From a plasmid, in the sequence record NZ_KX832927.1: a DNA stretch of 64,000 bases; one strand, given 5' to 3'. The translations under genes and the position numbers were made by a program. The notes under the pieces are model-generated. The model made no database searches and was not told the DNA's origin. It saw only the letters and a list, made by a program, of their open reading frames with translations. Within the stretch, counting starts at the first letter, position 1, and each line of letters starts with the position of its first letter. Below are positions 20,329-56,007 of this stretch, one piece after another.

Positions 20329-21548
20329 CAGTAATTCCTTTCTGCATATTCATTAACAATAAATTGCTTATCATCACCGGTTACAATGCTTGGAACATTA
20401 CGAATCCCAAAACGCTCTTTCATGCCTTCTTGAATAAAATATAAAGTGGCATCATCACCATATAAATTGCTGTCGGAAAATGTTTCCCAACCGTTCCCAT
20501 AAACGTCAGTTGCAATTAATGTAGGAATTAAGTTTTCTTCTTTGGCATTTTGATATTGCTGTTGTGCAAATACACGTTGCCATTCTGAAGCAGGATTGAA
20601 AAAAATTAACTTCAAGTTAAACGGGATAACGTCCATAGGGTTTACTCGCCCTTTTTTGGCAATTATGCGTCCATCTGGAGATAATATATCCTGTGGTATC
20701 ACAACGCTTGGGTCTACATAGTGGGTGCTATCTTTTAGAGCTTCAGGGAATTTGTATATATCTTTATTCTTCCAGTATCGGTTATAGGCATCCTTTTTCA
20801 TTTTCTCGAAATCTAGATTTTTAATACCTTCTTCAATTAAATCCAGCATATTACGTTCAATTACCTCAACAACTGGTCCTTGCACACCCATATTCCCTGT
20901 TTTGTTATCGAGATAATTAACATTGGAAATTCCATGTACCAGAGATACAAATTCACCATCATTTTCATGAATGATAGTCGGAATGGTTCGCACACCATAT
21001 TTGATAAAAATGTTCGGGTCTATTGTGAAATTCACTTCTGACTTCGTATCGCGAATTAATTTATGCCAGTGATTTATTTCATCGACCAGTGAATCTTTAT
21101 TTTTAACTCCCTGAACAACTAGGATTACATCATTACGACCTGATACTGACCGCATAATATCAATTACTTCAGTATCTTTAAGACTTGCCGAAATCAATAT
21201 GTAAAATACATTACCTTTTTGCTGTTGGTTGAAATTTCCACTTTCATTCTGACTTTTGATCATCTCCTTCAGTATCTGACCTTCATCAGTCGTTAGCTTG
21301 TTAATAGCCTGATTTGCCATGACGTTTTTATCTGCGATAAGCTGGCGCGTTGCTTCTCTGTGAACTTCAGCTTGTGCCGCTGCCACTGCTTTCAGTTTTT
21401 CCAAATCTGCCATGTCTGTATCAGTAGCTCGTTCGACAGTAGGAATGGATTCTGTATATGGAGTAACCATATTTAATTTACTATTTGCACTGGATGTAAT
21501 GGACAGTGTTAATAGAGAAATTAATAATGTAACTTTCTTTTTTACCAT
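20328..21548 (-). CDS. traW: TraW/TrbC-like F-type pilus assembly protein (start moved to the ATG at 21548, 'MVKKKVTLL...')
   Basis: Signal peptide. Sits between trhF and traU, as in the SXT/IncHI order. Confidence 0.7.
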   Translation of the reverse strand: MVKKKVTLLISLLTLSITSSANSKLNMVTPYTESIPTVERATDTDMADLEKLKAVAAAQAEVHREATRQLIADKNVMANQAINKLTTDEGQILKEMIKSQNESGNFNQQQKGNVFYILISASLKDTEVIDIMRSVSGRNDVILVVQGVKNKDSLVDEINHWHKLIRDTKSEVNFTIDPNIFIKYGVRTIPTIIHENDGEFVSLVHGISNVNYLDNKTGNMGVQGPVVEVIERNMLDLIEEGIKNLDFEKMKKDAYNRYWKNKDIYKFPEALKDSTHYVDPSVVIPQDILSPDGRIIAKKGRVNPMDVIPFNLKLIFFNPASEWQRVFAQQQYQNAKEENLIPTLIATDVYGNGWETFSDSNLYGDDATLYFIQEGMKERFGIRNVPSIVTGDDKQFIVNEYAERNY

Positions 21549-22057
21549 ATCGGATATGCTCTCCCGATCACATTTTCTATGGGGAGTACGCCCCAATACC
21601 GTGAGTCAAAACTGACCTTAGTTCGACCCATTAGCCAGATGTGACCAGCAGGAATTATCCCTTCACGTTGTAATTCCTGCTCTGTATGACCAGATTCTCT
21701 TGCTAATAGAAGTCCTTCACCCACCATCAGCTCATTGACAGTGGTTTCTTCAGGATTGACCCTAACCTTGTCACCAGCTACACCGTCTATAAATTTGATC
21801 GCAATGCTACTGATGTATTCAGACCGAAAAGCAAATATTTTCCCTTTCTGAATATCTTTATCCATTTTGTCAATTAGATAAATTCTGTGTTCAGGGAGGC
21901 AGGGGTAGTTTTGCGGATCAATCCCAATTGAAAAACGATTAAGTATGTAATGGCTTGCAGGTGCGACAGTGGCGACAATAATCAACATATAAAGAGATTG
22001 CCGCCCCCATCCCCGTTTTTTCTTTGAAATTCTTTTATAAAGTTTCTTCAGGTGCAT
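21542..22057 (-). CDS. trhF: TrhF/TraF-type S26 signal-peptidase-like protein (pilin maturation peptidase)
   Basis: S26 box E 'SFDSRYWG'. Position between traC and traW. Confidence 0.75.
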   Translation of the reverse strand: MHLKKLYKRISKKKRGWGRQSLYMLIIVATVAPASHYILNRFSIGIDPQNYPCLPEHRIYLIDKMDKDIQKGKIFAFRSEYISSIAIKFIDGVAGDKVRVNPEETTVNELMVGEGLLLARESGHTEQELQREGIIPAGHIWLMGRTKVSFDSRYWGVLPIENVIGRAYPIW

Positions 22058-37560: not shown

Positions 37561-37673
37561 AACCAATTCGTTTTAGCAACCTTTCAAAAGATAAATATTA
37601 ATTAGTAAATGTAAAATCCACGTTGATAGTAGTTTGCTGTCAATTTAATACTGTAAATATAGAAGGGTTAGAT

Positions 37674-38033
37674 ATGCAATTAGTAAAAACATGTGCCATG
37701 CCTAAAATTGATACCAAAAAACTGCTTTTCGTAGTTTTAGCTGTGTTGTGTGTAGCGGCATTGGCAGTTATGTTCGCCTATGGCAAAGGAACCGAACAGT
37801 CCGGTTTCAAAGAAGTATGGATGCAAATCACTGCATATATGCAGGGGTCATTAGGACGTGTGTTAGTGGGTCTGATTGTCGTTGTTGGTATTGCGGCGGC
37901 GGTTGTTCGTCAGTCGTTAATGACCTTTGCAGTGGCGGTTGGTGCGGCAATTGGTCTGTACTACGCACCGGATATCATCAACGGTATCATGACTTCATCA
38001 GTAGCAGTGACCACTGCACTGCCAGTTTTATAA
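37674..38033 (+). CDS. traA: TraA, F-type pilin precursor
   Basis: About 120 aa with a leader and two hydrophobic helices ('...VLVGLIVVVGIAAAVV...FAVAVGAAIGLYYAPD...'). SD 'agaaggg'. Gly/Ala/Val-rich, GC-richer coding patch. Followed by a strong terminator. Confidence 0.7.
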   Translation: MQLVKTCAMPKIDTKKLLFVVLAVLCVAALAVMFAYGKGTEQSGFKEVWMQITAYMQGSLGRVLVGLIVVVGIAAAVVRQSLMTFAVAVGAAIGLYYAPDIINGIMTSSVAVTTALPVL

Positions 38034-39814: not shown

Positions 39815-40891
39815 TTATTCGGTAATTCTATCCTCACCAACTTTAAAATCCGGATTTGCTTCTAAAGAGAAGCGCCACAGCCCAAGAACGTTTCCTTTGT
39901 AATCTTCAGGGATTTTAACTGAAAAAACGTCAGGTTCCGCTCTAGAGGTAATAGCTGTTACTTCCTGTTCATATACGGTATGTTCATTGAATGCCTCAGT
40001 TATCATAGAACTTAGATTACCAAGTATTGAAAATCCATTTTTTTCAAAGTCCTCCATAGATTGGGGGGAAAATGAATAACGTACACTCTGTAACGTATTA
40101 CTCTGAGTCATTACCGCTTCTGGTTCACCACACTCCCACTGACCGAATCTCATAAGATAGAAAGCTATATTTTTTTCATTGTGCTCAATAATTTCTTCTC
40201 CATCACAATACATTTTCACATCACCACAGACAAAATGAGCATAATTGTCATCATTGATAGAAATATCTTTTGTATTATCAGCTACTAGTTCGATGATAAG
40301 TGGAGGCTTTGTTGCAATCATGACATCGCCAAGCATTGCCATTTCACTATTTCCTAAAGAATGCAAAGCACATGTTTCATATTTTGTTTTGCGTTCAATA
40401 AATGAAGTTACCGGAAGTAAAGTCCATATTCTTAGACTACGATAGTATATTGCAAAAAAGAGAGGTATTTGGTTTATTTCACTGTATCGCTGAAGCTTTT
40501 CAACATAATTATTTGTAAGAAAATATGATGCTTTAGGGTTAGGTTGATTACAATTTTTCACTTCAACAAATATTTGTCTCCCATCTTTCAAAATGAGTCT
40601 GTAATCTGGTAACTCAATTTCGTCATCATCATAAATTACATCACCGGTATCTTCAGTTTTAATCAGTCTACAACCATGCAGACCAGCGACCACTTCACTA
40701 AAACAGGATTCCATACGCTTGCCGTGAAGTAAAATTGCATTTTCCTGTGATGCTTTGAGAGAGTCACGAAATACATGAAGAAATTTTTCAGTATCTTCTT
40801 GTGATCTAAGCTTAAAGCCATGTTCACGGCTGAATGCTGTAAATACCTCTAGTGCTTCGAATTTTTCAGGGTTCCGTTCTAGGCGTTTCAT
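39815..40891 (-). CDS. Hypothetical protein with a putative PD-(D/E)xK nuclease-like core (358 aa)
   Basis: 'DYRLILKDGRQIFVEVKNC' fits the D...(E/D)xK pattern. Convergent with the helicase gene. Confidence 0.45.
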   Translation of the reverse strand: MKRLERNPEKFEALEVFTAFSREHGFKLRSQEDTEKFLHVFRDSLKASQENAILLHGKRMESCFSEVVAGLHGCRLIKTEDTGDVIYDDDEIELPDYRLILKDGRQIFVEVKNCNQPNPKASYFLTNNYVEKLQRYSEINQIPLFFAIYYRSLRIWTLLPVTSFIERKTKYETCALHSLGNSEMAMLGDVMIATKPPLIIELVADNTKDISINDDNYAHFVCGDVKMYCDGEEIIEHNEKNIAFYLMRFGQWECGEPEAVMTQSNTLQSVRYSFSPQSMEDFEKNGFSILGNLSSMITEAFNEHTVYEQEVTAITSRAEPDVFSVKIPEDYKGNVLGLWRFSLEANPDFKVGEDRITE

Positions 40892-40932: not shown

Positions 40933-41499
40933 TTAACTATCAGTTTGTATAGCTAAAAGCATTTCTAAATGATGTTTCACCAGAAATTTGATAATGACTC
41001 TATCATAACCGAGATATTGCTCGACTGATAAATTAGCAATGAATGCGGCTTCAGTCATTGTTATACCATTAGGGTTTTGTTCTAAACCTAAAATTCGCCT
41101 CATAGCCTCTGATTCAGCCCCTCTCATGAGAGTAAACACTTCATCAGAGCAACGATGTTCTGGAAGTAATTCCTTCGTGATTTTCAAGGGATTTACGCCA
41201 CCATGATAATTTCCTGTTTTGTCTCTTTCGATAAGGTTAATTGCTTGGTTTCCGTCGCGAAAATCAATTAAAGGGTCTATGACGGTATGAGCCTTTGTCT
41301 CGATCCATGAGTATTGCAAAATGCTGTTTGTGTAAGCTAAATCCGTCTCCGGAGTTTGGACCAGTTCTTGCTTATAGATACCAATCACAGCCTCGCCCTC
41401 GATGTATCCCTCTTTTAATAATTGTCGGCATAAAAGATATGAATATGGGTACATCTGAATATCGTCAGCTATTGTTCTCAGACTCGTGTATTTTTCCAT
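40933..41499 (-). CDS. Hypothetical protein (188 aa)
   Basis: ORF with no recognised motifs. Confidence 0.45.
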   Translation of the reverse strand: MEKYTSLRTIADDIQMYPYSYLLCRQLLKEGYIEGEAVIGIYKQELVQTPETDLAYTNSILQYSWIETKAHTVIDPLIDFRDGNQAINLIERDKTGNYHGGVNPLKITKELLPEHRCSDEVFTLMRGAESEAMRRILGLEQNPNGITMTEAAFIANLSVEQYLGYDRVIIKFLVKHHLEMLLAIQTDS

Positions 41500-41557: not shown

Positions 41558-42532
41558 TCATTTATTGGTGGTGTTCGCGTTTACTTTTTCATAATGAATA
41601 GAATCCGTTCTTTCATCGGGGTTTTTCGCGCTAAGTAATATAAATGTATAATTTTGTTTACCGTGAGTGATGAATAAGTCTGTGCCGCCCCACACTTCAG
41701 AACTTGGCTTTTTCGATAGGAGCAAAATATTATTTGGTAACAATTTGATATCGAAATGATCGTCATGGTCGGAGCCATTGATGAAGTAGTTGAGCTCTTT
41801 CACGGCTTCGGATTGTGTAGGTAGGAAAATTTTCACCGCAAAATTACGGTATAGATAGACTTTTGTTTGTGAATTTGGAGCGTATGGGATCGTTAATTGC
41901 TTCCCTACATAGTCGAGGTTTTGGTCATTTTCATGACGTTTGTTTCTTTCTTCCAACGCTGCATCGAATACGTTTTTAAAGTCTTGTTGCTGTGTTGGAG
42001 CCTGATTGCTGTAATATACGTCACTGAGTTCCTGCTCTACCGGTGCAGGCGGTTGACCTGTAAAGTCGGTACTTAATGCCTGAGTGTGTTCTACTACTGA
42101 AGTAGCAGCTTCGTTAACAGGCTCAAGCATTTCATTATTTTTTTGTTCGCTATCTGATGCTAGTTGTTTTTCTGTGTCGCCAGAATGTTCCTTTACTGCT
42201 TCTGAGAGCGTTTTAGCAACTTCAACTGTCACAGTGTCGGATTTAACTTCTAATGTAGGAGAATCGGTTTTAGCTACGTTCTCGGCATTGTTCGATTCTG
42301 GTTCTGCCTCTTTGGGATTGTTAAAAACAGGAATAGAGGTTTCAACGTCACTATAATAATTAACATCAATTTCTGTCGTGTCTGTTGCTGGCTTGAGTAA
42401 AAAAAATGCTGCTATTGCACCCGCTGAAACCGCAATTGCAATCACGGATTTTTTATTCAGAAGAAAACCAAGTCCTTTTTTACTTTCACTTTTTTTAGTA
42501 TTGGAAGAAACATCCGTCATTTTGAGCCTCAA
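41558..42532 (-). CDS. Membrane-anchored hypothetical protein (324 aa) with an acidic, low-complexity extracytoplasmic region
   Basis: A single transmembrane helix near the N-terminus, then a Glu/Thr/Ser-rich linker and a C-terminal globular part. Confidence 0.5.
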   Translation of the reverse strand: MRLKMTDVSSNTKKSESKKGLGFLLNKKSVIAIAVSAGAIAAFFLLKPATDTTEIDVNYYSDVETSIPVFNNPKEAEPESNNAENVAKTDSPTLEVKSDTVTVEVAKTLSEAVKEHSGDTEKQLASDSEQKNNEMLEPVNEAATSVVEHTQALSTDFTGQPPAPVEQELSDVYYSNQAPTQQQDFKNVFDAALEERNKRHENDQNLDYVGKQLTIPYAPNSQTKVYLYRNFAVKIFLPTQSEAVKELNYFINGSDHDDHFDIKLLPNNILLLSKKPSSEVWGGTDLFITHGKQNYTFILLSAKNPDERTDSIHYEKVNANTTNK

Positions 42533-42609
42533 TAATCTGCGTTACGTGTATCTGCTATATGTTATAGAATTACGCCCTACGAATAGGGCGCAAAGGTTCT
42601 AAAATCGTA

Positions 42610-43545
42610 TTACTTTCTCAACAGAAATAATTTATTGGCTATCATTTTTCCGTCCATGAGTGTTAGACGGTCAGATGTTCTGTGACTGTATAGAATTGCA
42701 TCGTTTGAAAATTTACCTGATGTGACTAGAAATACATGCTTAAATTCGGGTTCTGATTCAAGCACACCAACCATTTCACGAGCGATAGCAACACCTACAT
42801 TGTCTGATTTCCAGTGTTTGCATTGAGCGAAAACCTTGATTCCATCACGTTCCATAATGATATCTTTCCCACCGTCTGGTCCATAATTAGTGACAGTAGC
42901 TCTGTACCCAAGGCTGTTGAATAACTCTCTTATAAATTCCTCAAATTCTCTCCACGATAGTTCGCGAATAAATTGCAATGCATCTTCATGATAGGTGGCG
43001 TTAAAAAGTACCTTTTTAAACATAGTTTGCTGTTTATAACGAAAGTAGACACTTGCAGAATAAGCCACGAGCAGAAATGCAACGCACGAACGTAATATAT
43101 GGAAAATATAATATGAACAAACGGGAATATTCCTCAGAGAGAATAATTTATTCGCACTGCTTTTCCCAAAAATATCAGCATATGCTGTTTTAATATCACC
43201 CCATATTAGTTGTATGATTTTCGTTGTTATTACATGGTCATAACGAAGAAAAAATACCGTTATTGTTGTAACAGCAATTATCACTAATGCAACTTGAGGG
43301 TTTAATAGAGGGGCATTTCTTTTAATTCCCACTGAAGCCCATTCAGGTTTCTTTTTCTTGTGTAACCTCAATATTTTGCTGCTAGGTGATAACATATAAA
43401 TAGCGAATAAAGGTATTACTAAAGTTAAAACTCTCGCAATAGAATCAAATCTAAGAAATACCAGAATGGTCATATAGAATATAAATGCAATATTCATATT
43501 AGTTACATAGGGATTTCGTTTCTTAAATCTACGCTTTCTTCTCAT
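42610..43545 (-). CDS. Membrane-anchored protein with a C-terminal Mrr-like restriction-endonuclease (Mrr_cat) domain
   Basis: Several N-terminal transmembrane helices. The C-terminal 'EFEEFIRELFNSLGYRATVTNYGPDGGKDIIMERDGIKVFAQCKHW' matches the Mrr N-terminal catalytic domain pattern (D...D...QCK). Confidence 0.6.
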   Translation of the reverse strand: MRRKRRFKKRNPYVTNMNIAFIFYMTILVFLRFDSIARVLTLVIPLFAIYMLSPSSKILRLHKKKKPEWASVGIKRNAPLLNPQVALVIIAVTTITVFFLRYDHVITTKIIQLIWGDIKTAYADIFGKSSANKLFSLRNIPVCSYYIFHILRSCVAFLLVAYSASVYFRYKQQTMFKKVLFNATYHEDALQFIRELSWREFEEFIRELFNSLGYRATVTNYGPDGGKDIIMERDGIKVFAQCKHWKSDNVGVAIAREMVGVLESEPEFKHVFLVTSGKFSNDAILYSHRTSDRLTLMDGKMIANKLFLLRK

Positions 43546-43562
43546 TACAACATTCCAATTTA

Positions 43563-44132
43563 CTAAAATAGTAGCTCTGTCACAGTAAGTAAGGCTCCGT
43601 TCGGAGTGATATGTATTCCATCCTTTGTGCGAACTGTTGTCCCATCTATGGCATCCTTGTATGTTTCACCAAGAACCGTTCGCGTATCTACGGTGGTGAT
43701 CCCCTCTATCTGCGAAGCCGTCATTATGGCGTGCCGAGTGTTATCTAATAGTCTGTTTTTGGTGGGGTCTTTAAGGGTTGGAGGAAGTAACCAGATCACA
43801 TTTTGGTTTCTGGCTTTTATGGTTTGGATAAAATGCCGAACTTTAGAGGTGTACTTTTCTTTTTCTGATATTTGAACATGGTCGTTAGTACCGAGAATCA
43901 CATAAACGGTATCGTATTTTTCAAAACTGAATTGCTCTGCGTATCTCTGCCAATCAAGGATCTTCTTTGTGGATAATCCGCTACCTACTTTGTATCGAGC
44001 ATCAACAGCTTGGATTGTGCTGTACCCTTTAGCTATCTCATAGGTAAGTGAATCTCCTATAAAAACAGGTTTGCTGTATGACATAGAAGAAAATAAAAGG
44101 GAGCTGATTACTGAGATTTTATAAATATTCAT
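43563..44132 (-). CDS. Secreted SGNH/GDSL-family hydrolase
   Basis: Signal peptide. 'FIGDSLT' (GDSL block I), 'GTND' (block III), 'DGIHIT' (block V, DxxH). Confidence 0.65.
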   Translation of the reverse strand: MNIYKISVISSLLFSSMSYSKPVFIGDSLTYEIAKGYSTIQAVDARYKVGSGLSTKKILDWQRYAEQFSFEKYDTVYVILGTNDHVQISEKEKYTSKVRHFIQTIKARNQNVIWLLPPTLKDPTKNRLLDNTRHAIMTASQIEGITTVDTRTVLGETYKDAIDGTTVRTKDGIHITPNGALLTVTELLF

Positions 44133-44472
44133 TGCAACCCATATCAGTTATAAGCCAAATCTCACTACTTTGACTTGTGTTCTTTTTAAGCAATATCGAG
44201 CATGGTATAGATGCCATATCAATTTTTATTAATGTGTTGCCACTCCCCTTCACCTCATAGAGTTGCTTTATTTCGTTGGATTCAAGACCAGTAATCTCTC
44301 TTGCCAGTACATAGGTATCAGCTACTCTGTCGAAGCCACCAGAACTGACATGCTTATCTTGTGCGGCTTGCGTCACAAGATGCTCGTGTGTAGTGATCGC
44401 CCCTGTGGTAGAACCACAAGAGGACAAGAAAAAGCAAACTAATGCGATACAGCTTCTATTTATCCCCATCAT
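44119..44472 (-). CDS. Lipoprotein (117 aa)
   Basis: Lipobox 'LSSCGS'. Overlaps both neighbours, so likely an operon. Confidence 0.5.
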   Translation of the reverse strand: MMGINRSCIALVCFFLSSCGSTTGAITTHEHLVTQAAQDKHVSSGGFDRVADTYVLAREITGLESNEIKQLYEVKGSGNTLIKIDMASIPCSILLKKNTSQSSEIWLITDMGCNEYL

Positions 44473-45205
44473 TCCCCTCTGCCGTTTGAGCTTCAGAAAT
44501 TACTTTTAAGCTATTCTCCCCTATATCAAAATCGCTTTTCATAAACTCAAGTGTAAAAGCCGTGGCTAAATACCGGCTTATCAAAAGTTCCTTTTTAACA
44601 AGCCCTCGCAAATGCCGTGGAGTTCCAACCGCATTTTCAAAAAACCGTGAATCCCATGAGTGATCCCTGTTATCGCCAAGAACAAAAACATATCCATCAG
44701 GGATTACCCATTGTGTATAAATTGGCTTAACGAATGGTTTACGGTTATCAATGACGTACTCATATTGTTGCGCATTACGTTCCTGAAGCGCCTGATAGGT
44801 ACTCGTATGGTCATTATGAAGGTTTAGCTGCCCGATCATCCTTCCGTTGATCTGGACCGACTTATCATCGGTATAAGTGACAGTATCGCCAGCCAATCCG
44901 ATAATGCGTTTTACATAAATGAATGAAGGGAATGCAGGAGCTCGGAAAATCACGATATCCCCACGCATCAATTGCTCTTTTTGCGCATCAACCGGCTTTG
45001 CAAAAATGAGATCACCAGCTTTCAATGTCGGTGCCATAGAGGATGTAGGGATAATGTAATAGTCCAATAGGTAGGATTTAACGGACCATACAATAAGTGA
45101 AATTATTACCAAACTGACAGTATAAAAACTAGGCTTACGTTTACGATATACGAGGTAAAGAATTCGTAGGATAAGTGCAATAATAAGGGTACTTATGAAG
45201 TTCAT
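44456..45205 (-). CDS. Signal peptidase I (LepB-like S26 peptidase)
   Basis: Box B 'PTSSMAPTL' (catalytic Ser). Box E 'GDNRDHSWDSRF'. N-terminal transmembrane helices. Confidence 0.8.
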   Translation of the reverse strand: MNFISTLIIALILRILYLVYRKRKPSFYTVSLVIISLIVWSVKSYLLDYYIIPTSSMAPTLKAGDLIFAKPVDAQKEQLMRGDIVIFRAPAFPSFIYVKRIIGLAGDTVTYTDDKSVQINGRMIGQLNLHNDHTSTYQALQERNAQQYEYVIDNRKPFVKPIYTQWVIPDGYVFVLGDNRDHSWDSRFFENAVGTPRHLRGLVKKELLISRYLATAFTLEFMKSDFDIGENSLKVISEAQTAEGNDGDK

Positions 45206-45285: not shown

Positions 45286-45708
45286 TCACTTTCTATTTTG
45301 GTGGTGCATGGTTATGGCTCTCAAATATCCATAAAACCATAACATATTAAAGTGGCTACTTATTTTTAAAGGCAAAAAATAACATATAGTGTCACTGGAA
45401 AAAACAAGATGTCCTATCTTATTATTAACTGTTTTAAAGCTGATTGAATCAATATAATTTTTAGAGTGTTCAAAATAGATATGATAGCAATATACATAAA
45501 TTGTAAGAAGAAAGAATGATGCGAATACCTTAGATAATTCAATTAACGGAATAGATTCAACAAAATCGCCTACTAATGCAATTAAAACAGTTAATATTAA
45601 TACTGAAATATCAATTATATTTCTTTTTCGAATTAACATATATGCTGGATATACACAAATGACGGTTAAAAAAATGATCCGAATGAATGTAGTGTATTTA
45701 TTCTTCAT
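45286..45708 (-). CDS. Hypothetical membrane protein (140 aa)
   Basis: Three or four hydrophobic helices. Overlaps the upstream gene. Confidence 0.45.
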   Translation of the reverse strand: MKNKYTTFIRIIFLTVICVYPAYMLIRKRNIIDISVLILTVLIALVGDFVESIPLIELSKVFASFFLLTIYVYCYHIYFEHSKNYIDSISFKTVNNKIGHLVFSSDTICYFLPLKISSHFNMLWFYGYLRAITMHHQNRK

Positions 45709-46705
45709 TAGACCACCATTCAGGAGCTGCTAATGAATCCTCTGAAACTTTCCAACCAAAGTTAATCAACATTTTCTTTATATTATAAGGTTTATCCATA
45801 AAATAACTCATGTGGGTTTTATTGTTCCTTGTGAGCTGCCCTGCCCTAACTGAAGTAATACCAATGTAGGTTGTTAAGTCTGACAGTGTATAACCCAAAT
45901 ACGTGATATCTGACAATTCGTCGATACACTTATTTTCATGAATAGTGTTTAGGATACCCTCTAATTCAGTTTTAACAAACATATACAATTGTCTGCTGTC
46001 ACTACCGGTTATTTTTTCACTTTCATTGCAGTGGATATTATGGACATTCTCATTATCCTTGTTGTTTTCAAGCCACCAATTAGGCGCATGTAAATTATTG
46101 CTAGTAACAACCCATCCATGATTAATAAGAACAAGCGCATTATTAAATGTATACTTTGAAAGTTTCACTTCATTAACTTCAGACAAAAATATTTCTTGCT
46201 TGTCAATGCATTCCAAAATACCAAGATCCATTAACATTGTAGTTATAGATGATTGATTTCTATGTATCTTATCTGCGATTGAGCTTAGGTTCATCTTGTT
46301 TTGTATCATGGAGATAACTGTATGAATTTCTTCATTAACCCATACTGTTTCATTACGATTCAAATCGTTAGTGTTGCTCATAGGGAATTGATCATTACTT
46401 ACCCACCACTTGGGGGCTTTAAGAGATTCCTCCCTGTTTGATAACTCATATATCCAACCAAGTTCTAATAATTTAGGAATAAATGATGAATGAGGAATGA
46501 GGTGATTTAAATTAGTATTCCTAGCCGTAGATATCTTATTATCCTTATAGTTTATTTCACACAACCCCATGTTCAATAATTTTGAGAGGACATCATTTAC
46601 ACTACGTCCGGTAAATCTGCATATCTTTTCGATGAAAAACGGCTCATTAATGGTTCCGAATAGTTTTGTTATTTCAGATAATGTCCATACCGTTAGATTT
46701 CGCAT
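45698..46705 (-). CDS. Hypothetical protein built from three tandem modules of about 110 aa (HTH-like segment followed by 'L..GW......L.AP.WW')
   Basis: Internal repeats seen in the translation: 'LLELGWIYELSNREESLKAPKWW', 'LINHGWVVTSNNLHAPNWW', 'LINFGWKVSEDSLAAPEWW'. Confidence 0.5.
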   Translation of the reverse strand: MRNLTVWTLSEITKLFGTINEPFFIEKICRFTGRSVNDVLSKLLNMGLCEINYKDNKISTARNTNLNHLIPHSSFIPKLLELGWIYELSNREESLKAPKWWVSNDQFPMSNTNDLNRNETVWVNEEIHTVISMIQNKMNLSSIADKIHRNQSSITTMLMDLGILECIDKQEIFLSEVNEVKLSKYTFNNALVLINHGWVVTSNNLHAPNWWLENNKDNENVHNIHCNESEKITGSDSRQLYMFVKTELEGILNTIHENKCIDELSDITYLGYTLSDLTTYIGITSVRAGQLTRNNKTHMSYFMDKPYNIKKMLINFGWKVSEDSLAAPEWWSNEE

Positions 46706-46725: not shown

Positions 46726-47385
46726 TTAAAATGGGAATAAACCGTAATTTTCACAGCCTAGTTCTTCTCTTGATTCTGTTGATATAATAATTTGTTTCAA
46801 TTCGCTCAATAATTTTAATTGTTCAGTAATTACGTTCCTGTTTTCATTGTCAATAATATTTGTACTTGCAATTTCTTCAAATGCATCTTTCATATTGAAA
46901 ATACTCATTCTTTCGATATTCACACAAGTATTAGATGCTAGATAATTAATTAACCAATTTAATTTTACTAATTTATAACAGTAAATAACACAAGTATGAC
47001 CCACTCCAAATTCACCAGATAAAACATTTCTAGCGTGAAACACTAATTCTTCATATACTTTTAGAAATGCTAAACTTTGTGACGTTGCGCGGTGATTCGT
47101 TAATAGTTCATTTACTTTTTCAATATTCGAGGATAGATCATTTTCTTCAGGGAATGTGATTGTCACTGATTCTTGTTGCTGCCATTTTTGATTTTTATTA
47201 TTAAGGTGTATTTCCACATACTTTTGTAACCATATGTATTTAGTTTCATTTGATGGTATGGATGTGTAAAATATAAAAAAAGGAACGTTAAATAATAATG
47301 CGTATTTTATTGTTTTAACAGGAAAACTTAGTTTTACAGTTTCATCAAATGAACTGACAGTTCCTTTAGATTGTACAAAAAACAA
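46726..47385 (-). CDS. Hypothetical protein (219 aa)
   Basis: ORF with no recognised motifs. Confidence 0.45.
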   Translation of the reverse strand: MFFVQSKGTVSSFDETVKLSFPVKTIKYALLFNVPFFIFYTSIPSNETKYIWLQKYVEIHLNNKNQKWQQQESVTITFPEENDLSSNIEKVNELLTNHRATSQSLAFLKVYEELVFHARNVLSGEFGVGHTCVIYCYKLVKLNWLINYLASNTCVNIERMSIFNMKDAFEEIASTNIIDNENRNVITEQLKLLSELKQIIISTESREELGCENYGLFPF

Positions 47386-49875: not shown

Positions 49876-50695
49876 GGCACTGTTGCAAATAGTCGGTGGT
49901 GATAAACTTATCATCCCCTTTTGCTGATGGAGCTGCACATGAACCCATTCAAAGGCCGGCATTTTCAGCGTGACATCATTCTGTGGGCCGTACGCTGGTA
50001 CTGCAAATACGGCATCAGTTACCGTGAGCTGCAGGAGATGCTGGCTGAACGCGGAGTGAATGTCGATCACTCCACGATTTACCGCTGGGTTCAGCGTTAT
50101 GCGCCTGAAATGGAAAAACGGCTGCGCTGGTACTGGCGTAACCCTTCCGATCTTTGCCCGTGGCACATGGATGAAACCTACGTGAAGGTCAATGGCCGCT
50201 GGGCGTATCTGTACCGGGCCGTCGACAGCCGGGGCCGCACTGTCGATTTTTATCTCTCCTCCCGTCGTAACAGCAAAGCTGCATACCGGTTTCTGGGTAA
50301 AATCCTCAACAACGTGAAGAAGTGGCAGATCCCGCGATTCATCAACACGGATAAAGCGCCCGCCTATGGTCGCGCGCTTGCTCTGCTCAAACGCGAAGGC
50401 CGGTGCCCGTCTGACGTTGAACACCGACAGATTAAGTACCGGAACAACGTGATTGAATGCGATCATGGCAAACTGAAACGGATAATCGGCGCCACGCTGG
50501 GATTTAAATCCATGAAGACGGCTTACGCCACCATCAAAGGTATTGAGGTGATGCGTGCACTACGCAAAGGCCAGGCCTCAGCATTTTATTATGGTGATCC
50601 CCTGGGCGAAATGCGCCTGGTAAGCAGAGTTTTTGAAATGTAAGGCCTTTGAATAAGACAAAAGGCTGCCTCATCGCTAACTTTGCAACAGTGCC
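49876..50695 (+). mobile_element. IS26 (820 bp, IS6 family)
   Basis: 14-bp IRs 'GGCACTGTTGCAAA' at 49876-49889 and its complement at 50682-50695. Tnp26 protein is identical in the stretch read. Confidence 0.95.
49939..50643 (+). CDS. tnpA: IS26 transposase Tnp26 (234 aa)
   Basis: 'MNPFKGRHFQRDIILWAVRWYCKYGISYRELQEMLAERG...' canonical Tnp26. Confidence 0.95.
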   Translation: MNPFKGRHFQRDIILWAVRWYCKYGISYRELQEMLAERGVNVDHSTIYRWVQRYAPEMEKRLRWYWRNPSDLCPWHMDETYVKVNGRWAYLYRAVDSRGRTVDFYLSSRRNSKAAYRFLGKILNNVKKWQIPRFINTDKAPAYGRALALLKREGRCPSDVEHRQIKYRNNVIECDHGKLKRIIGATLGFKSMKTAYATIKGIEVMRALRKGQASAFYYGDPLGEMRLVSRVFEM

Positions 50696-51131
50696 CGCCG
50701 ATGCGCTCAAGCCGTGGATTGCGCGGCGTGAACGCTGGCCGTCCTTTCTGATCCGGCGCGATCCGCGCGACATCAGCCGTATCTGGGTCCTGGAACCGGA
50801 GGGACAGCATTACCTGGAAATTCCCTACCGTACCTTGTCGCATCCGGCTGTCACCCTCTGGGAACAACGGCAGGCGCTGGCGAAACTGCGGCAGCAAGGG
50901 CGCGAACAGGTGGATGAGTCGGCGCTGTTCCGCATGATCGGCCAGATGCGTGAGATTGTGACCAGCGCGCAGAAGGCCACACGCAAGGCGCGGCGTGACG
51001 CGGATCGCCGCCAGCACCTCAAGACATCAGCTCGGCCGGACAAGCCCGTTCCGCCGGATACGGATATTGCCGACCCGCAGGCAGACAACTTGCCACCCGC
51101 CAAACCGTTCGACCAGATTGAGGAGTGGTAG
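50696..51131 (+). pseudogene. tniA: tniA (Tn402/Tn5053-family transposase), 3' fragment only. The 5' part and IRt were removed by IS26.
   Basis: The reading frame runs from inside IS26. C-terminal sequence is followed by an overlapping tniB, as in Tn21/In2. Confidence 0.8.
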
Positions 51132-51994
51132 CCGTGGACGAATATCCCATCATCGACCTGTCCCACCTGCTGCCGGCGGCCCAGGGCTTGGCCCGTCTTC
51201 CGGCGGACGAGCGCATCCAGCGCCTTCGCGCCGACCGCTGGATCGGCTATCCGCGCGCAGTCGAGGCGCTGAACCGGCTGGAAGCCCTTTATGCGTGGCC
51301 AAACAAGCAACGCATGCCCAACCTGCTGCTGGTTGGCCCGACCAACAATGGCAAGTCGATGATCGTCGAGAAGTTCCGCCGCACCCACCCGGCCAGCTCC
51401 GACGCCGACCAGGAGCACATCCCGGTGTTGGTCGTGCAGATGCCGTCCGAGCCGTCCGTGATCCGCTTCTACGTCGCGCTGCTCGCCGCGATGGGCGCGC
51501 CGCTGCGCCCACGCCCACGGTTGCCGGAAATGGAGCAACTGGCTCTGGCACTGCTGCGCAAGGTCGGCGTGCGCATGCTGGTGATCGACGAGCTGCACAA
51601 CGTGCTGGCCGGCAACAGCGTCAACCGCCGGGAATTCCTCAACCTGCTGCGCTTCCTCGGCAACGAACTGCGCATCCCGTTGGTTGGGGTAGGCACGCGC
51701 GACGCCTACCTAGCCATCCGCTCCGATGACCAGTTGGAAAATCGCTTCGAGCCGATGATGCTGCCGGTATGGGAGGCCAACGACGATTGCTGCTCACTGC
51801 TGGCCAGCTTCGCCGCTTCGCTCCCGCTGCGCCGGCCTTCCCCAATTGCCACGCTGGACATGGCTCGCTACCTGCTCACACGCAGCGAGGGCACCATAGG
51901 GGAACTGGCGCACTTGCTGATGGCGGCGGCCATCGTCGCCGTGGAGAGCGGCGAGGAAGCGATCAACCATCGCACACTCAGCATGGCCTGTTGA
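51125..51994 (+). CDS. tniB: TniB-delta (ATP-binding transposition protein), 3' end truncated by IS1326 (tniBΔ1-like). Likely GTG start at 51134.
   Basis: Walker A 'GPTNNGKS', 'VIDELHNV'. Followed directly by the IS1326 end. Confidence 0.85.
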   Translation: MVAVDEYPIIDLSHLLPAAQGLARLPADERIQRLRADRWIGYPRAVEALNRLEALYAWPNKQRMPNLLLVGPTNNGKSMIVEKFRRTHPASSDADQEHIPVLVVQMPSEPSVIRFYVALLAAMGAPLRPRPRLPEMEQLALALLRKVGVRMLVIDELHNVLAGNSVNRREFLNLLRFLGNELRIPLVGVGTRDAYLAIRSDDQLENRFEPMMLPVWEANDDCCSLLASFAASLPLRRPSPIATLDMARYLLTRSEGTIGELAHLLMAAAIVAVESGEEAINHRTLSMAC

Positions 51995-52016
51995 GTTGCA
52001 TCTAAAATTGACCCAC

Positions 52017-53630
52017 TGGGGGTGCGGACGATTTCTTGGACGGTTTATACGGACATCAATCCGACCGCATGACGATACTCGATGGGACTACGCCCGCCAA
52101 GCGACACTTTGATGCGGCGCTCGTTGTACCAGTGGATATAGGCATCGATTCGCGTCATGAGGTCTTTCAGCGTCACGTGCTGCCAATTCCTCGGGTAGAT
52201 TAGTTCGGTCTTCAATCGTCCGAAAAAGCCCTCGCATGCAGCATTGTCTGGCGAGCAGCCCTTTTTGGACATCGACCGCGTTAATTGGGCATTTTCAGTG
52301 CGGCGGATCCACGCAGGCCAGCGATAATGCGAGCCCCTGTCCGAATGGATAACCGGATGCTCACCGGGTCGCAGTGTCCGTACCGCGTGATCCAGCATGG
52401 TATTGACCAGGTTCGCATCCGGGCTGGTGCCGATATTCCAGGCCACCACCAGCCCATCGAAGCAATCGACGATCGGCGAGACGTAGACCTTCCCTGCCGG
52501 AATGTGTATTTCCGTCAGATCGGTCAACCATTTCGTATTCGGCGCCGACGCGTGAAAGTCGCGATTCAGCAGATTCGGGACCGCTGGTGTCGGGTCGCCA
52601 GCATACGCCGAGAAGCGCCGGCGGCGCGGTGTTCTCACGACCAGACGCTCTTGCGCCATCAAGCGACGCACGACCTTCTCGGACACACGCATGCCACCAA
52701 GGCGCAAGGCACTATCAATGCGTCGATAGCCATAGCAGCGGTAGTTGTCCTCGAAGATAGTCCGAATGACCTCACGCACCTGCGTGTACTTGTCGGGCCG
52801 CGTCTGCCGCAGGCGTTGATAGAAGTATGTGCTGCGCGCCAGCTTCAGGCCGCACAACAGATTGGCTAATGGAAACGTGACTCTGAGGGCATCAACCACC
52901 TTCGTTTTTTCTCGGCTTGTCAGTTCGAGGGGGTTGATGCCCATGTCTTTTTTTATCAATTCACTCGCCTTCTCCAGAATTGCATTCTCCATGCGAAGCC
53001 GCTGGTTCTGGCTCTCCAGTTCGGCCAGTTCCCTGAGTAGTGCCTCATGCCGCTGCTCGAGCGAGGTGTCACCTTTCTTCTTTGTCATGGGTTTTAGGGG
53101 CACTTTGCCAAGTAATCGATGCTGCCAGTTATACAACGTTGGTCGCGATACACCGACAGTGTCGGCCACATCCTTTGCCGAACCTACGCGCAGGTTCAGT
53201 GCAATGACGGCTTGCTGCTTCTCGAGGCGAGAGCGGGCGACTGTGGGAGCGCTGCTGCCGACGACCGTCCTAGCGAATTCAGGGCGTAAATCACGGATCC
53301 AGGCACGCAAGGCCTCGCGGCTTGGGTAGCCCAGGCTTCGGATTGTGTGACTCAGGCAGTAGCCTTGTTCGATATAGTGATCTACTGCCCGTTGCTTTTG
53401 CTCATCGGTGTACTGCCGTTTTATCCGTTGATAGCCTCGGCGAAGATCCTGATTCCGTTCGAATTCTGCCAACCAGGCCTTCAGCGAGTTCTTGGTGGGG
53501 TATCCCAGCTGCCGTAGTGTGGCGCTCATCCGGCGCCCAAGCTTCAGGTACAACCTCACGGCTCGAAGGCGATCTTCATACGAATACATGAACTACTCCT
53601 AAAGTAGTCCAAGATTTTGTCCGCACCCCA
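52017..53630 (-). mobile_element. IS1353-like IS3-family element (about 1614 bp) inserted in IS1326
   Basis: Terminal IRs 'TGGGGGTGCGGACGATTTCTTGGAC' and 'GTCCAAGATTTTGTCCGCACCCCA'. Located between the IS1326 left end and istA, as in In2. Confidence 0.75.
52045..53589 (-). CDS. IS3-family transposase (514 aa, single continuous ORF in this copy; HTH N-terminus plus DDE integrase core)
   Basis: N-terminal HTH 'LRAVRLYLKLGRRMSATLRQLGYP'. C-terminal rve-like region 'VHSDRGSHY...'. Confidence 0.75.
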   Translation of the reverse strand: MYSYEDRLRAVRLYLKLGRRMSATLRQLGYPTKNSLKAWLAEFERNQDLRRGYQRIKRQYTDEQKQRAVDHYIEQGYCLSHTIRSLGYPSREALRAWIRDLRPEFARTVVGSSAPTVARSRLEKQQAVIALNLRVGSAKDVADTVGVSRPTLYNWQHRLLGKVPLKPMTKKKGDTSLEQRHEALLRELAELESQNQRLRMENAILEKASELIKKDMGINPLELTSREKTKVVDALRVTFPLANLLCGLKLARSTYFYQRLRQTRPDKYTQVREVIRTIFEDNYRCYGYRRIDSALRLGGMRVSEKVVRRLMAQERLVVRTPRRRRFSAYAGDPTPAVPNLLNRDFHASAPNTKWLTDLTEIHIPAGKVYVSPIVDCFDGLVVAWNIGTSPDANLVNTMLDHAVRTLRPGEHPVIHSDRGSHYRWPAWIRRTENAQLTRSMSKKGCSPDNAACEGFFGRLKTELIYPRNWQHVTLKDLMTRIDAYIHWYNERRIKVSLGGRSPIEYRHAVGLMSV

Positions 53631-53711
53631 ACTTAGGGTAAAGATTTGCGTCGAAATTTGACCCACGTATGACACTGTTTCCCGTCTGGATATGGCGGGA
53701 GAAATCAAGGA

Positions 53712-55235: not shown

Positions 55236-56007
55236 AGGCCATGTGAGAATCCTCAAATCCTTGAAACTCTTTGGCATGGCACACGCCATTGAGGAGTTGG
55301 GCAATCAGAATTCACCAGCATTTAATCAAGCCTTGCCCATGCTGGACAGCTTGATTAAAGCTGAAGTGGCAGAGCGTGAAGTACGTTCGGTGAACTATCA
55401 ATTGCGGGTGGCCAAGTTCCCCGTGTATCGGGACTTGGTGGGCTTTGACTTCAGTCAAAGCCTGGTTAATGAGGCCACGGTCAAACAATTGCACCGGTGC
55501 GACTTCATGGAACAAGCCCAGAACGTGGTGCTGATTGGTGGGCCAGGCACAGGCAAGACTCACCTGGCCACAGCCATTGGTACACAAGCAGTGATGCACT
55601 TGAACCGACGGGTGCGTTTCTTCTCCACCGTGGATTTGGTCAATGCACTGGAGCAAGAGAAATCATCTGGGCGTCAGGGACAAATCGCAAACCGTCTGTT
55701 GTATGCCGATTTGGTGATTCTGGATGAGCTGGGATATTTGCCTTTTAGCCAAACCGGTGGGGCACTGCTGTTTCACCTGCTCTCAAAGCTGTACGAAAAA
55801 ACCAGCGTGATACTGACCACCAACTTGAGCTTCTCGGAATGGAGCCGAGTGTTTGGCGATGAAAAGATGACAACAGCGTTGTTGGACCGACTAACCCACC
55901 ACTGCCACATCCTGGAAACCGGCAATGAAAGTTACCGCTTCAAACACAGTTCAACTCAGAATAAGCAGGAGGAAAAACAGACCCGCAAACTGAAAATCGA
56001 GACATAA
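55222..56007 (+). CDS. istB: IstB ATP-binding helper of IS1326
   Basis: Walker A '[15 protein letters not shown]', 'LVILDELGY'. Confidence 0.9.

What the first reader, a model, noticed from the sequence alone, without database searches (positions are those of the whole stretch)
42610..45205. Operon coupling a signal peptidase I, a lipoprotein, a secreted SGNH hydrolase and a membrane-anchored Mrr-like nuclease-domain protein
Four overlapping or tightly spaced minus-strand genes are involved. They encode a LepB-like S26 peptidase (catalytic Ser in 'PTSSMAPTL'), a lipoprotein, a secreted GDSL/SGNH hydrolase, and a polytopic membrane protein whose cytoplasmic C-terminus carries an Mrr_cat-type restriction-endonuclease fold ('DGGKDII...QCKHW'). 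A membrane-tethered PD-(D/E)xK nuclease linked to envelope-acting enzymes is not a standard conjugation function. It could be a defence, exclusion or recipient-DNA-processing system.
Basis: partly seen in the sequence, partly recalled or inferred. Interest (0 to 1): 0.6.

Follow-up and report, generated by a model that had tools for sequence, protein, structure and literature searches.

The report
Conjugation-accessory operon with membrane-tethered Mrr nuclease
The four genes are real, but they are not a self-contained defence system: they are this plasmid's version of a conserved conjugation-accessory gene block already mapped by deletion in plasmid Rts1, where the signal peptidase is needed for mating and the membrane-tethered nuclease and lipoprotein are not.

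Summary
Observation confirmed. Four tightly packed minus-strand ORFs at 42610-45205 encode a LepB-type S26 peptidase, a lipoprotein, an exported SGNH/DUF459 enzyme and a 4-TM protein with an intact C-terminal Mrr_cat nuclease. The window is a pPrY2001-like MOBH/MPF_F conjugative plasmid of Proteus/Providencia.

Interpretation partly supported. S26, lipoprotein and TM-Mrr, together with a small membrane protein, p324 and p188, form a syntenic module found in every related lineage examined. These include Arsenophonus and Photorhabdus plasmids, Rts1/IncT, repA(pKOX)-type Klebsiella plasmids and the pKPC_CAV1321 family.

Published marker-free deletions in Rts1 (PMC10838148) give relative mating efficiencies of 0.001 for the LepB-like Orf185, 0.056 for Orf191 and 0.018 for Orf192. 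Deleting the lipoprotein (0.35) or orf188-190, which includes the TM-Mrr homolog (0.38), had no significant effect.

SGNH is a later insert. It is PatB/DUF459-like, restricted to Morganellaceae, and recurs on unrelated conjugative plasmids of that clade, whose peptidoglycan is O-acetylated.

TM-Mrr is under strong purifying selection with invariant catalytic residues, and is a rare 4-TM offshoot of a very large family of membrane-anchored Mrr_cat proteins. Its role is unresolved; defence or exclusion is the leading inference.

The parts
45286..45708 (-). Small polytopic membrane protein (140 aa). It is not annotated by PGAP in the identical plasmid. It is the positional counterpart of Rts1 orf184.
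   Evidence: ORF; 3 TM-like segments; 34% identity to the Photorhabdus counterpart. A small membrane ORF sits at the same position in all lineages. pN/pS is about 0.4. Rts1 delta-orf184 gave 0.45, no effect.
44456..45205 (-). LepB-type type I signal peptidase (S26A), with 2 TM helices and a periplasmic catalytic domain. Homolog of Rts1 Orf185, a mating-pair-formation gene.
   Evidence: Pfam and NCBIfam above cut-off. Aligns to E. coli LepB boxes. Ser56/Lys99 and boxes B-E are invariant and align with Rts1 Ser56/Lys101. phmmer 2.9e-57 to Rts1 Orf185. Rts1 deletion gave 0.00097.
44119..44472 (-). Small lipoprotein (117 aa) of unknown fold and function. Homolog of Rts1 orf187.
   Evidence: Lipobox LSSC. 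C19, S77, P90, C91, W106 and C113 are invariant across lineages. phmmer 6.9e-7 to Rts1 orf187. The AF2 model is weak, a helix plus a 4-stranded sheet, with no significant fold match. Rts1 delta-orf187 gave 0.35.
43563..44132 (-). Exported SGNH hydrolase of the DUF459/PatB-like family. It is a lineage-specific insert in the module.
   Evidence: DUF459 1.5e-22. The best solved relatives are PatB peptidoglycan O-acetyltransferases, E 2.9e-6. Blocks S28, G52, N83 and D171/H174 are conserved, and all full-length relatives have signal peptides. Absent from Rts1-like modules. Homologs occur on other Morganellaceae plasmids.
42610..43545 (-). Inner-membrane protein with 4 TM helices and a cytoplasmic C-terminal Mrr_cat (PD-(D/E)xK) nuclease domain. 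Homolog of Rts1 orf189.
   Evidence: Mrr_cat 4.2e-23; topology; AF2 and Foldseek. E202, D224, D228, Q241 and K243 are invariant. phmmer 2.9e-34 to the Rts1 homolog. pN/pS 0.06-0.10. Rts1 delta-orf188-190 gave 0.38.
42572..42591 (-). Stable stem-loop with a UUCG tetraloop, starting 19 nt downstream of the Mrr stop codon. It has no U tract, so it may be an RNA stabiliser or a partial terminator.
   Evidence: Sequence. RNA fold -17.5 kcal/mol, z = -4.28. Not called as an intrinsic terminator.
41558..42532 (-). Membrane-anchored periplasmic protein (p324) with a low-complexity linker and a conserved C-terminal domain. Homolog of Rts1 Orf191 (Mpf, 0.056).
   Evidence: phmmer 1.9e-16; conserved C-terminal block. 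Rts1 Orf191 has a weak CagX/VirB9 Pfam match, 8.4e-5. Rts1 data.
40933..41499 (-). Cytoplasmic protein p188. Homolog of Rts1 Orf192, which is needed for efficient transfer (0.018) but is not an Mpf gene.
   Evidence: phmmer 1.3e-26. Present in 206 plasmid records with the same genus distribution as TM-Mrr. Rts1 data.
21542..22057 (-). Second, short TraF-type S26 peptidase inside the tra cluster. It is the counterpart of Rts1 Orf215, so this plasmid has two conjugation-linked peptidases like Rts1.
   Evidence: TIGR02771 TraF_Ti 3.9e-12 and TIGR02227 56 bits. PGAP annotation. Rts1 two-peptidase statement.
37623..38033 (+). TraA pilin precursor (TrbC/VirB2-like), a candidate substrate of the S26 peptidase.
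   Evidence: NF041281 TraA_gammapb 8e-28. The translation shows a long leader with a hydrophobic segment followed by AYG. The substrate relation is an inference.

Best explanation
The four genes are the centre of a conserved conjugation-accessory operon of Rts1-related MOBH/MPF_F plasmids. The gene order is: small membrane protein, LepB-type S26 peptidase, (Orf186-like protein, lost in this lineage), lipoprotein, (SGNH, gained in this lineage), 4TM-Mrr nuclease, VirB9-like p324, p188.

Shown by homology to tested genes: the S26 enzyme is a dedicated type I signal peptidase for mating-pair formation. It works alongside the TraF-type peptidase at 21542-22057.

Inferred: its substrate is the long-leader TraA pilin or another exported Mpf protein.

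Shown by sequence and structure: the 4TM-Mrr protein is a catalytically intact Mrr-type nuclease held at the cytoplasmic face of the inner membrane. By analogy with Rts1 orf189 it is not needed in the donor for transfer.

Inferred: its most likely role is to cut unwanted DNA close to the membrane. That would be a defence or exclusion function expressed together with the transfer apparatus.

Inferred: the SGNH enzyme is a later, separately acquired periplasmic PatB/DUF459-like esterase or transferase. It probably acts on O-acetylated peptidoglycan, which would help the plasmid's SLT lytic transglycosylase and the T4SS cross the wall of Morganellaceae hosts.

The lipoprotein's role is unknown.
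For: Plasmid identity: 100% to pTAFA, typed MOBH and MPF_F.

Synteny of the module holds in six diverged lineages, with protein identities down to about 22% for Mrr and 16-20% for the lipoprotein.

Rts1 marker-free deletions, with coordinates matching the Rts1 locus: orf185 0.00097 (mobilisation 0.0002), orf186 <0.0001, orf187 0.35, orf188-190 0.38, orf191 0.056, orf192 0.018.

S26 catalytic dyad and boxes are invariant. A second, TraF-like peptidase is present.

TM-Mrr: fold and catalytic residues; strong purifying selection; retained in essentially every plasmid that carries p188. The closest 148 relatives of its nuclease domain are mostly TM-anchored (86%) and are stand-alone genes. A TM + Mrr_cat protein, Epona, is a validated anti-phage gene.

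SGNH: DUF459/PatB similarity; intact catalytic blocks and signal peptides. Homologs are almost exclusively in Proteus, Providencia, Morganella, Xenorhabdus and Photorhabdus, and sit next to transfer genes on two other plasmid backbones. These genera are listed as O-acetylating their peptidoglycan while E. coli does not, and O-acetylation blocks lytic transglycosylases (PMC6174289). The backbone encodes an SLT next to FlhC regulators, and the Rts1 SLT is an Mpf gene.
Against: Function is transferred from Rts1 across 26-40% identity, and nothing has been tested in a pPrY2001-like plasmid.

The lineage lacks any Orf186 homolog in the window although Orf186 is essential in Rts1, so requirements may differ.

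The Rts1 assays used only E. coli donors and recipients, and orf189 was deleted together with orf188 and orf190. Host-specific, recipient-side or masked roles are therefore untested.

No defence-family profile matches TM-Mrr beyond the nuclease domain. Deep syntenic conservation inside a transfer operon is atypical for defence genes.

For SGNH: PatB is a transferase that needs PatA, and no partner is adjacent. IncT plasmids live in Proteus without it. IS-disrupted copies exist in natural plasmids. SGNH enzymes have many possible substrates.

No shared regulatory motif with the tra promoters was found.
Confidence: 0.6

Rival explanations
1. The four proteins form one integrated envelope-spanning defence or exclusion system. 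In this view the peptidase matures the secreted hydrolase, and the lipoprotein, hydrolase and nuclease cooperate against incoming phage or plasmid DNA.
For: Translational coupling and tight packing. All four genes are under purifying selection. Domain-level hits to Type IV REase, PDC-S02 and ZorD nuclease profiles. In another plasmid type the SGNH gene is followed directly by a DUF2726 gene. DUF2726 belongs to the PD-(D/E)xK clan as far as I recall; this was not tested here.
Against: SGNH is absent from most lineages that keep S26, lipoprotein and Mrr. The S26 homolog is an Mpf gene in Rts1. A lipoprotein would be processed by signal peptidase II, not by an S26 enzyme (established knowledge). 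No PADLOC multi-gene system matches. Natural variants break SGNH alone, or SGNH and Mrr together.
Confidence: 0.08
2. TM-Mrr is a true but conditionally required part of the transfer machinery. It might process or anchor DNA at the T4SS in native Morganellaceae donors, at other temperatures, on surfaces, or with particular recipients.
For: Its position between Mpf genes is conserved across very deep divergence. It co-occurs almost one-to-one with p188. Rts1-type homologs carry a topoisomerase-type Zn-ribbon DNA-binding module and sit next to ParB. Rts1 was tested only in liquid E. coli matings.
Against: The Rts1 delta-orf188-190 mutant transfers at 0.38 of wild type. No characterised T4SS that I know of uses a PD-(D/E)xK nuclease beside the relaxase (own knowledge).
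Confidence: 0.17
3. TM-Mrr serves plasmid maintenance and not DNA attack. It could act as a membrane tether or positioning factor, or as a post-segregational toxin-like element.
For: It lies next to ParB in Rts1-type plasmids. It is universally retained although dispensable for mating.
Against: The catalytic acidic, Gln and Lys residues are invariant, which argues for catalysis and against mere binding. There is no adjacent antitoxin-like gene. pPR-NDM-1A survives with the TM region deleted. A Photorhabdus plasmid carries a truncated copy.
Confidence: 0.08
4. The SGNH enzyme acts on a substrate other than peptidoglycan. Candidates are O-acetyl groups on LPS, capsule or O-antigen, or a lipid. 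The effect could alter surface receptors for phage, or recipient recognition.
For: SGNH hydrolases are promiscuous (established knowledge). Similarity to PatB is weak: NCBIfam 25.7 bits against a cut-off of 580, PDB E 2.9e-6. No Ape1 match.
Against: The specific Pfam family is DUF459, whose solved members are PatB enzymes. The host range coincides with O-acetyl-peptidoglycan producers.
Confidence: 0.25

Closest known systems
Rts1 (IncT) orf184-orf192 region of the conjugation gene set (Murata, Gotoh and Hayashi 2024, PMC10838148)
   Same: Same gene order and homologous proteins: S26 (2.9e-57), lipoprotein (6.9e-7), TM-Mrr (2.9e-34), p324/Orf191 (1.9e-16) and p188/Orf192 (1.3e-26). Same location beside UvrD-like, traA, dsbA and mobH genes. 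Same two-peptidase arrangement.
   Different: The window lineage lacks Orf186 (essential in Rts1), the 125-aa Orf188 membrane protein and ParB. It has gained the SGNH gene. Its TM-Mrr lacks the C-terminal Zn-ribbon. The Rts1 authors did not list pPrY2001-like plasmids as relatives.
Pilin maturation in RP4: host LepB plus plasmid TraF acting on TrbC (as summarised in PMC10838148)
   Same: A LepB-type and a TraF-type S26 peptidase are both linked to a TrbC/VirB2-like pilin.
   Different: Here, as in Rts1, the LepB-type enzyme is plasmid-encoded instead of host-supplied. Its substrate is unknown.
Epona, a single-gene anti-phage system from Vibrio chromosomal integrons (bioRxiv 10.1101/2024.07.02.601686)
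   Same: An Mrr_cat nuclease domain fused to transmembrane helices.
   Different: Epona is described with a 2-TM holin-like domain and is an integron cassette. The protein here has 4 TM helices and is fixed inside a conjugation operon. No sequence comparison was possible, and no phage phenotype is known.
Mrr, MspJI and AspBHI modification-dependent (Type IV) restriction endonucleases
   Same: Same catalytic fold and D...(Q/E)xK motif. They are the top structural matches.
   Different: There is no N-terminal modified-DNA-reading domain (Mrr_N or SRA-like); it is replaced by a membrane anchor. Specificity is unknown.
PatB / Ape peptidoglycan O-acetyl transferase and esterase SGNH enzymes (PMC6174289)
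   Same: Periplasmic SGNH catalytic domain of the DUF459 family with an intact Ser-Asp-His machinery. Hosts O-acetylate their peptidoglycan.
   Different: The score is far below the PatB equivalog cut-off. There is no adjacent PatA. The gene is plasmid-borne and linked to transfer genes.

Membership tests
Type I signal peptidase, S26A (LepB type) | Ser/Lys catalytic dyad within conserved boxes B-E | tested here: met
   Ser56 (SM_PT), Lys99 (YVKR) and GDNRDxSxDSR are all invariant. Aligns to E. coli LepB boxes.
Type I signal peptidase, S26A (LepB type) | Curated family model score above its cut-off | tested here: met
   TIGR02227 119.7 bits against 47; PF10502 126.3 bits against 22.9.
Type I signal peptidase, S26A (LepB type) | N-terminal membrane anchor with a periplasmic catalytic domain | tested here: met
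   Two TM segments with a basic cytoplasmic loop. This is a prediction only.
Rts1 Orf185-type conjugation (Mpf) peptidase | Sequence homology and conserved position in the module | tested here: met
   phmmer 2.9e-57. Same position after the small membrane ORF in all lineages.
Rts1 Orf185-type conjugation (Mpf) peptidase | Required for conjugation and for mobilisation of a test plasmid | not testable with these tools
   Shown only for Rts1 (0.00097 and 0.0002).
Mrr-type (Type IV) restriction endonuclease | Mrr_cat PD-(D/E)xK catalytic domain with the D...(Q/E)xK motif | tested here: met
   PF04471 82.1 bits against 21. Foldseek returns MspJI, AF1548 and AspBHI. E202, D224, D228, Q241 and K243 are invariant.
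Mrr-type (Type IV) restriction endonuclease | N-terminal domain that reads modified DNA (Mrr_N winged helix or equivalent) | tested here: not met
   Residues 1-170 are four TM helices and loops, with no Pfam hit there.
Mrr-type (Type IV) restriction endonuclease | Modification-dependent DNA cleavage | not testable with these tools
   Needs biochemistry.
PADLOC candidate defence family PDC-S02 / known defence systems | Full-length match to a defence-family profile, or a recognised multi-gene system | tested here: not met
   The best hit is 44 bits and covers only profile positions 192-303 of 334, the nuclease part. The other three proteins have no hits. The same is true for Rts1-type homologs.
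Epona-like TM + Mrr_cat anti-phage proteins | Mrr_cat fused to TM helices and conferring phage resistance | tested here: inconclusive
   The architecture is partly shared (4 TM against 2 TM).
SGNH hydrolase superfamily | Blocks I (GDS), II (G), III (GxND) and V (DxxH) | tested here: met
   S28, G52, N83, D171 and H174 are at least 95% conserved in 31 sequences.
PatB peptidoglycan O-acetyltransferase | Equivalog-level similarity and an adjacent PatA (MBOAT) partner | tested here: not met
   NF045704 25.7 bits against a cut-off of 580. Neighbouring genes are the lipoprotein and TM-Mrr, with no MBOAT.
Ape-type O-acetylpeptidoglycan esterase | Esterase activity on O-acetylated MurNAc | not testable with these tools
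   No sequence match to solved Ape1 at E <= 1. The activity needs an assay.
Bacterial lipoprotein | Signal peptide with a lipobox and an invariant +1 Cys | tested here: met
   LSSC at residues 16-19. Cys19 is invariant in 7 diverged sequences.
Single operon | Co-directional genes with overlapping or very short spacers and no internal terminator | tested here: met
   Overlaps of 17 and 14 nt and a gap of 17 nt. No minus-strand terminator-like site inside the cluster.
Single operon | One transcript | not testable with these tools
   Needs RNA-seq or RT-PCR. A stable hairpin follows the Mrr stop codon.

The most novel reading that the evidence does not exclude
The 4TM-Mrr protein is a nuclease hard-wired into the conjugation operon to guard the transfer channel. 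It would sit at the inner membrane beside the T4SS and destroy DNA that enters through the plasmid's own pilus or T4SS, such as pilus-specific phage genomes or competing plasmids. That would be a nuclease-based form of entry exclusion or defence conserved across Rts1-related MOBH plasmids. A second strand of this reading is that Morganellaceae plasmids have repeatedly recruited a PatB-like SGNH enzyme to get their T4SS through O-acetylated peptidoglycan.
Probability: 0.17. Interest if true: 0.7.

Novelty: new variant of a known kind. Interest (0 to 1): 0.4.

Why it matters
pPrY2001-like plasmids spread NDM-1, cfr and other resistance genes among Proteus and Providencia and into E. coli. Their transfer genes have not been dissected.

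Linking this block to the Rts1 deletion map gives immediate, testable assignments: a plasmid-encoded LepB-type peptidase as a transfer requirement, and p324 and p188 as efficiency factors.

It also isolates two unexplained but strongly conserved passengers, the membrane-tethered Mrr nuclease and the lipoprotein.

If the nuclease proves to protect the conjugation channel, or the SGNH enzyme proves to adapt T4SS assembly to O-acetylated cell walls, both would be new principles in plasmid host-range and exclusion biology. If neither holds, the block is simply an ordinary lineage variant of a known transfer region.

Tried and rejected
- PADLOC and PHROGs scans of the ten proteins around the cluster gave only nuclease-domain or uninformative hits.
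- Direct sequence search of TM-Mrr against the PDB gave only spurious staphopain hits.
The shallow-alignment model had pLDDT 50, and Foldseek found nothing significant; a cystatin/monellin-like resemblance at E > 0.6 was not trusted.
- Profile searches of the lipoprotein, p188 and p324 families against the PDB found nothing.
- A search for a regulatory motif shared between the S26 upstream region and the tra promoters found none. The only recurrent motif is an AT-rich ribosome-binding leader elsewhere in the window.
- I looked for transfer data on the naturally disrupted plasmid pPR-NDM-1A. The paper reports none.
- tblastn for an Orf186, Orf188 or Orf184 homolog elsewhere in the window found none at E < 0.1.
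- The pPrY2001 literature does not mention these genes.
- I considered and rejected the idea that the cluster is part of the variable resistance region. It is low-GC backbone, conserved in 56 of 72 family plasmids.


Full report
**What is there**

The window carries four minus-strand ORFs exactly at the stated coordinates:
- S26 peptidase, 44456-45205 (249 aa)
- lipoprotein, 44119-44472 (117 aa)
- SGNH hydrolase, 43563-44132 (189 aa)
- polytopic membrane protein with a C-terminal Mrr_cat domain, 42610-43545 (311 aa)

The first two pairs overlap by 17 and 14 nt. The last pair is separated by 17 nt, and a GAGGGG ribosome-binding site precedes the lipoprotein start.

Curated models support three of the four assignments well above their cut-offs. 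The fourth has a lipobox (LSSC) whose cysteine is invariant in homologs as distant as 16% identity. PGAP's shorter 85-aa call, which omits the lipobox, is therefore probably wrong.

Hydropathy and the positive-inside rule give four TM helices with both termini of the Mrr protein in the cytoplasm, and a LepB-like two-TM topology for the peptidase. AlphaFold models the nuclease domain at pLDDT 76-92. The best structural matches are MspJI, AF1548, AspBHI and the Avs4 effector. The membrane part is helical but low-confidence because the alignment was shallow.

Within the plasmid family all four genes are under purifying selection: pN/pS is 0.11 for S26, 0.27-0.45 for the lipoprotein, 0.08-0.16 for SGNH and 0.06-0.10 for TM-Mrr.

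**What replicon this is**

The region is 100% identical to Proteus vulgaris plasmid pTAFA and 95-98% identical to about 70 pPrY2001-like plasmids of Proteus, Providencia, Moellerella and E. coli. These are typed MOBH/MPF_F and mostly predicted conjugative. One member, pHFK418-NDM, transfers at 1.5e-2.

The cluster lies in low-GC backbone between a tyrosine recombinase and the UvrD-traA-dsbA-mobH region. A second, short TraF-type S26 peptidase sits inside the tra cluster at 21542-22057.

**The block is part of a larger, old module**

Full-length relatives of the TM-Mrr protein are rare. Wherever they occur, the neighbours are the same. This holds on Arsenophonus nasoniae plasmids, a Photorhabdus contig and an unnamed contig at 44-64% identity. 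It also holds at 22-28% identity in Rts1 (IncT), a Klebsiella repA(pKOX)-type plasmid and the Citrobacter/Serratia/Kluyvera pKPC_CAV1321 family.

A presence/absence matrix shows the following:
- **In every lineage:** small membrane protein, S26, lipoprotein, TM-Mrr, a membrane-anchored p324-like protein and a cytoplasmic p188-like protein.
- **Orf186-like protein (~200 aa):** present everywhere except the pPrY2001 and Photorhabdus clade.
- **SGNH gene:** present only in the Morganellaceae-associated clade, and reduced to a remnant in Arsenophonus.

p188 and TM-Mrr have almost identical genus counts among 72,556 plasmids: Providencia 60/60, Citrobacter 60/58, Proteus 26/26, Klebsiella 19/19, Escherichia 13/13. 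A pattern-limited scan of 185,579 species genomes found the module only in Enterobacterales.

**Experimental anchor**

Murata, Gotoh and Hayashi (2024; PMC10838148) deleted every Rts1 gene except repA, marker-free, and measured E. coli-to-E. coli transfer. Their deletion coordinates match the Rts1 locus fetched here. Relative efficiencies were:

| Rts1 gene(s) | Product | Efficiency |
|---|---|---|
| orf184 | small membrane protein | 0.45 |
| orf185 | LepB-like S26 | 0.00097 (mobilisation 0.0002, hence mating-pair formation) |
| orf186 | 214-aa protein | <0.0001 |
| orf187 | lipoprotein | 0.35 |
| orf188-190 | 125-aa membrane protein, TM-Mrr homolog, ParB | 0.38 |
| orf191 | 410-aa protein | 0.056 |
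| orf192 | 221-aa protein | 0.018 |

The authors stress that Rts1 is the first element known to need two peptidases, Orf185 and the TraF-like Orf215.

The window S26 protein matches Orf185 at 2.9e-57, and its Ser56/Lys99 align with the reported Ser56/Lys101. Rts1 Orf191 has a weak CagX/VirB9-family match. The authors did not connect their module to pPrY2001-like plasmids; that link is made here.

**The nuclease**

E202, D224, D228, Q241, K243 and the TSG turn are invariant from this window to Rts1, so catalysis is probably preserved.

An exhaustive profile search of 1.84 billion representative proteins found 11,794 Mrr_cat relatives, but only about five clusters that also match the TM region. 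Of the 148 closest relatives, 86% have at least one predicted TM helix and 100 have a C-terminal Cys4 ribbon-like motif. Rts1-type homologs carry the same ribbon.

Membrane tethering of this nuclease clade is therefore common, and the 4-TM plasmid form is a rare derived branch. Two of the 2-TM relatives are stand-alone genes, one in an accessory region rich in toxin-antitoxin modules and one beside PNP_UDP_1 and HATPase_c_3 genes. One TM + Mrr_cat protein, Epona, has been validated as an anti-phage gene.

Against a defence reading, all PADLOC matches stop at the nuclease domain. Deep synteny inside a transfer operon is also unusual for defence genes.

Natural plasmids survive with the gene damaged. 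pPR-NDM-1A has lost the TM region to an IS200/IS605 insertion, and the Photorhabdus copy is truncated.

**The SGNH enzyme**

It belongs to DUF459, whose solved members are PatB peptidoglycan O-acetyltransferases. It falls far below the PatB equivalog threshold and has no PatA partner next to it. The catalytic blocks and a signal peptide are conserved in 31 relatives.

Those relatives are almost all from Proteus, Providencia, Morganella, Xenorhabdus and Photorhabdus. They sit on other conjugative backbones:
- directly after T4CP-relaxase-Hha-H-NS on ~40-kb IncFII-RepA/MOBF plasmids;
- next to a DUF2726 gene on 30-35-kb plasmids that also encode TrbM and an SLT-domain protein.

A Clarke-lab review lists exactly these genera as O-acetylating their peptidoglycan. 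It lists E. coli as not doing so, and notes that O-acetylation blocks lytic transglycosylases. The plasmid backbone encodes an SLT enzyme beside FlhC-type activators, and the Rts1 SLT is an Mpf gene.

This supports the inference that the enzyme adapts T4SS assembly to O-acetylated walls, but does not prove it. An IS3 insertion in one family member shows the gene is dispensable for maintenance.

**Verdict**

The interpretation of a single unusual four-protein system is only partly right:
- The peptidase is a conjugation gene by homology to a tested one.
- The hydrolase is a later add-on.
- The nuclease and lipoprotein are conserved passengers whose homologs are not needed for laboratory mating.

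The most likely role for the nuclease is protection against unwanted DNA at the membrane. That is inference, and I give the composite explanation 0.6 confidence.

A stable UUCG hairpin follows the Mrr stop codon (-17.5 kcal/mol, z = -4.3), so the transcription unit may pause or end there. I rate the finding as a new variant of a known kind, with moderate interest.

Noticed in passing
window 45286-45708 (-): A 140-aa membrane-protein ORF directly upstream of the S26 gene is not annotated by PGAP in the identical plasmid pTAFA. It has positional counterparts in every related lineage and 34% identity to the Photorhabdus one. It is probably a real gene, equivalent to Rts1 orf184.
   Followed up: partly
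window 44456-44472 junction; compare L005 3543-4133 and L007 7404-8048: The pPrY2001 and Photorhabdus lineages lack any homolog of Rts1 orf186, which is essential for Rts1 conjugation (<0.0001). tblastn of three orf186-family proteins against the whole window gave nothing below E = 0.16.
   Followed up: partly
window 46726-47385 (-): A DUF4365 protein sits next to the tyrosine recombinase, with a weak PADLOC PDC-M03B hit (2e-4). A preprint describes a validated anti-phage protein (Divona) with an N-terminal DUF4365 domain and an Mrr-subfamily nuclease.
   Followed up: no
window 39815-40891 (-): A 358-aa protein with no family match contains a PD-(D/E)xK-like motif by eye (LPDY...IFVEVKNC). It lies at the downstream end of the same gene array and could be another nuclease.
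   Followed up: no
window 45698-46705 (-): The 335-aa protein shows three internal repeats of roughly 110 aa (secondary BLAST alignments offset by one repeat), with weak HTH-type hits (TraM, MarR). It is broken into fragments in Arsenophonus.
   Followed up: no
window 11158-11173, 13516-13531, 16983-16998 and nearby (-): An AT-rich motif, TATTTAAATAGGTAAA, recurs immediately before the start codons of consecutive genes (VWA, MoxR, 165-aa ORF): 7 matches against 1.6 expected. It contains the AGG Shine-Dalgarno sequence, so it looks like a shared translation-initiation leader.
   Followed up: partly
L006 8106-9421: In the Photorhabdus plasmid a ParE/PaaA2 toxin-antitoxin pair has inserted inside the lipoprotein gene, splitting it. 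The Mrr gene there has a premature stop at the start of the nuclease domain.
   Followed up: partly
L019 8001-9086; L020 8001-9086: On 30-35-kb Proteus plasmids that also encode TrbM and an SLT-domain protein, a DUF459 SGNH gene is followed 4 nt later by a DUF2726 gene (2e-17). This is a second case of an SGNH gene next to a possible nuclease-fold gene.
   Followed up: partly
window 50001-64000: GC content jumps from about 0.37 to 0.50-0.65, which marks an acquired high-GC region, presumably a resistance region, beside the low-GC backbone.
   Followed up: no
window 12505-13512 versus L030 27753-29361: The window is not identical to pTAFA overall. pTAFA has an IS1 inserted in the MoxR-family gene, which is intact in the window.
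   Followed up: no
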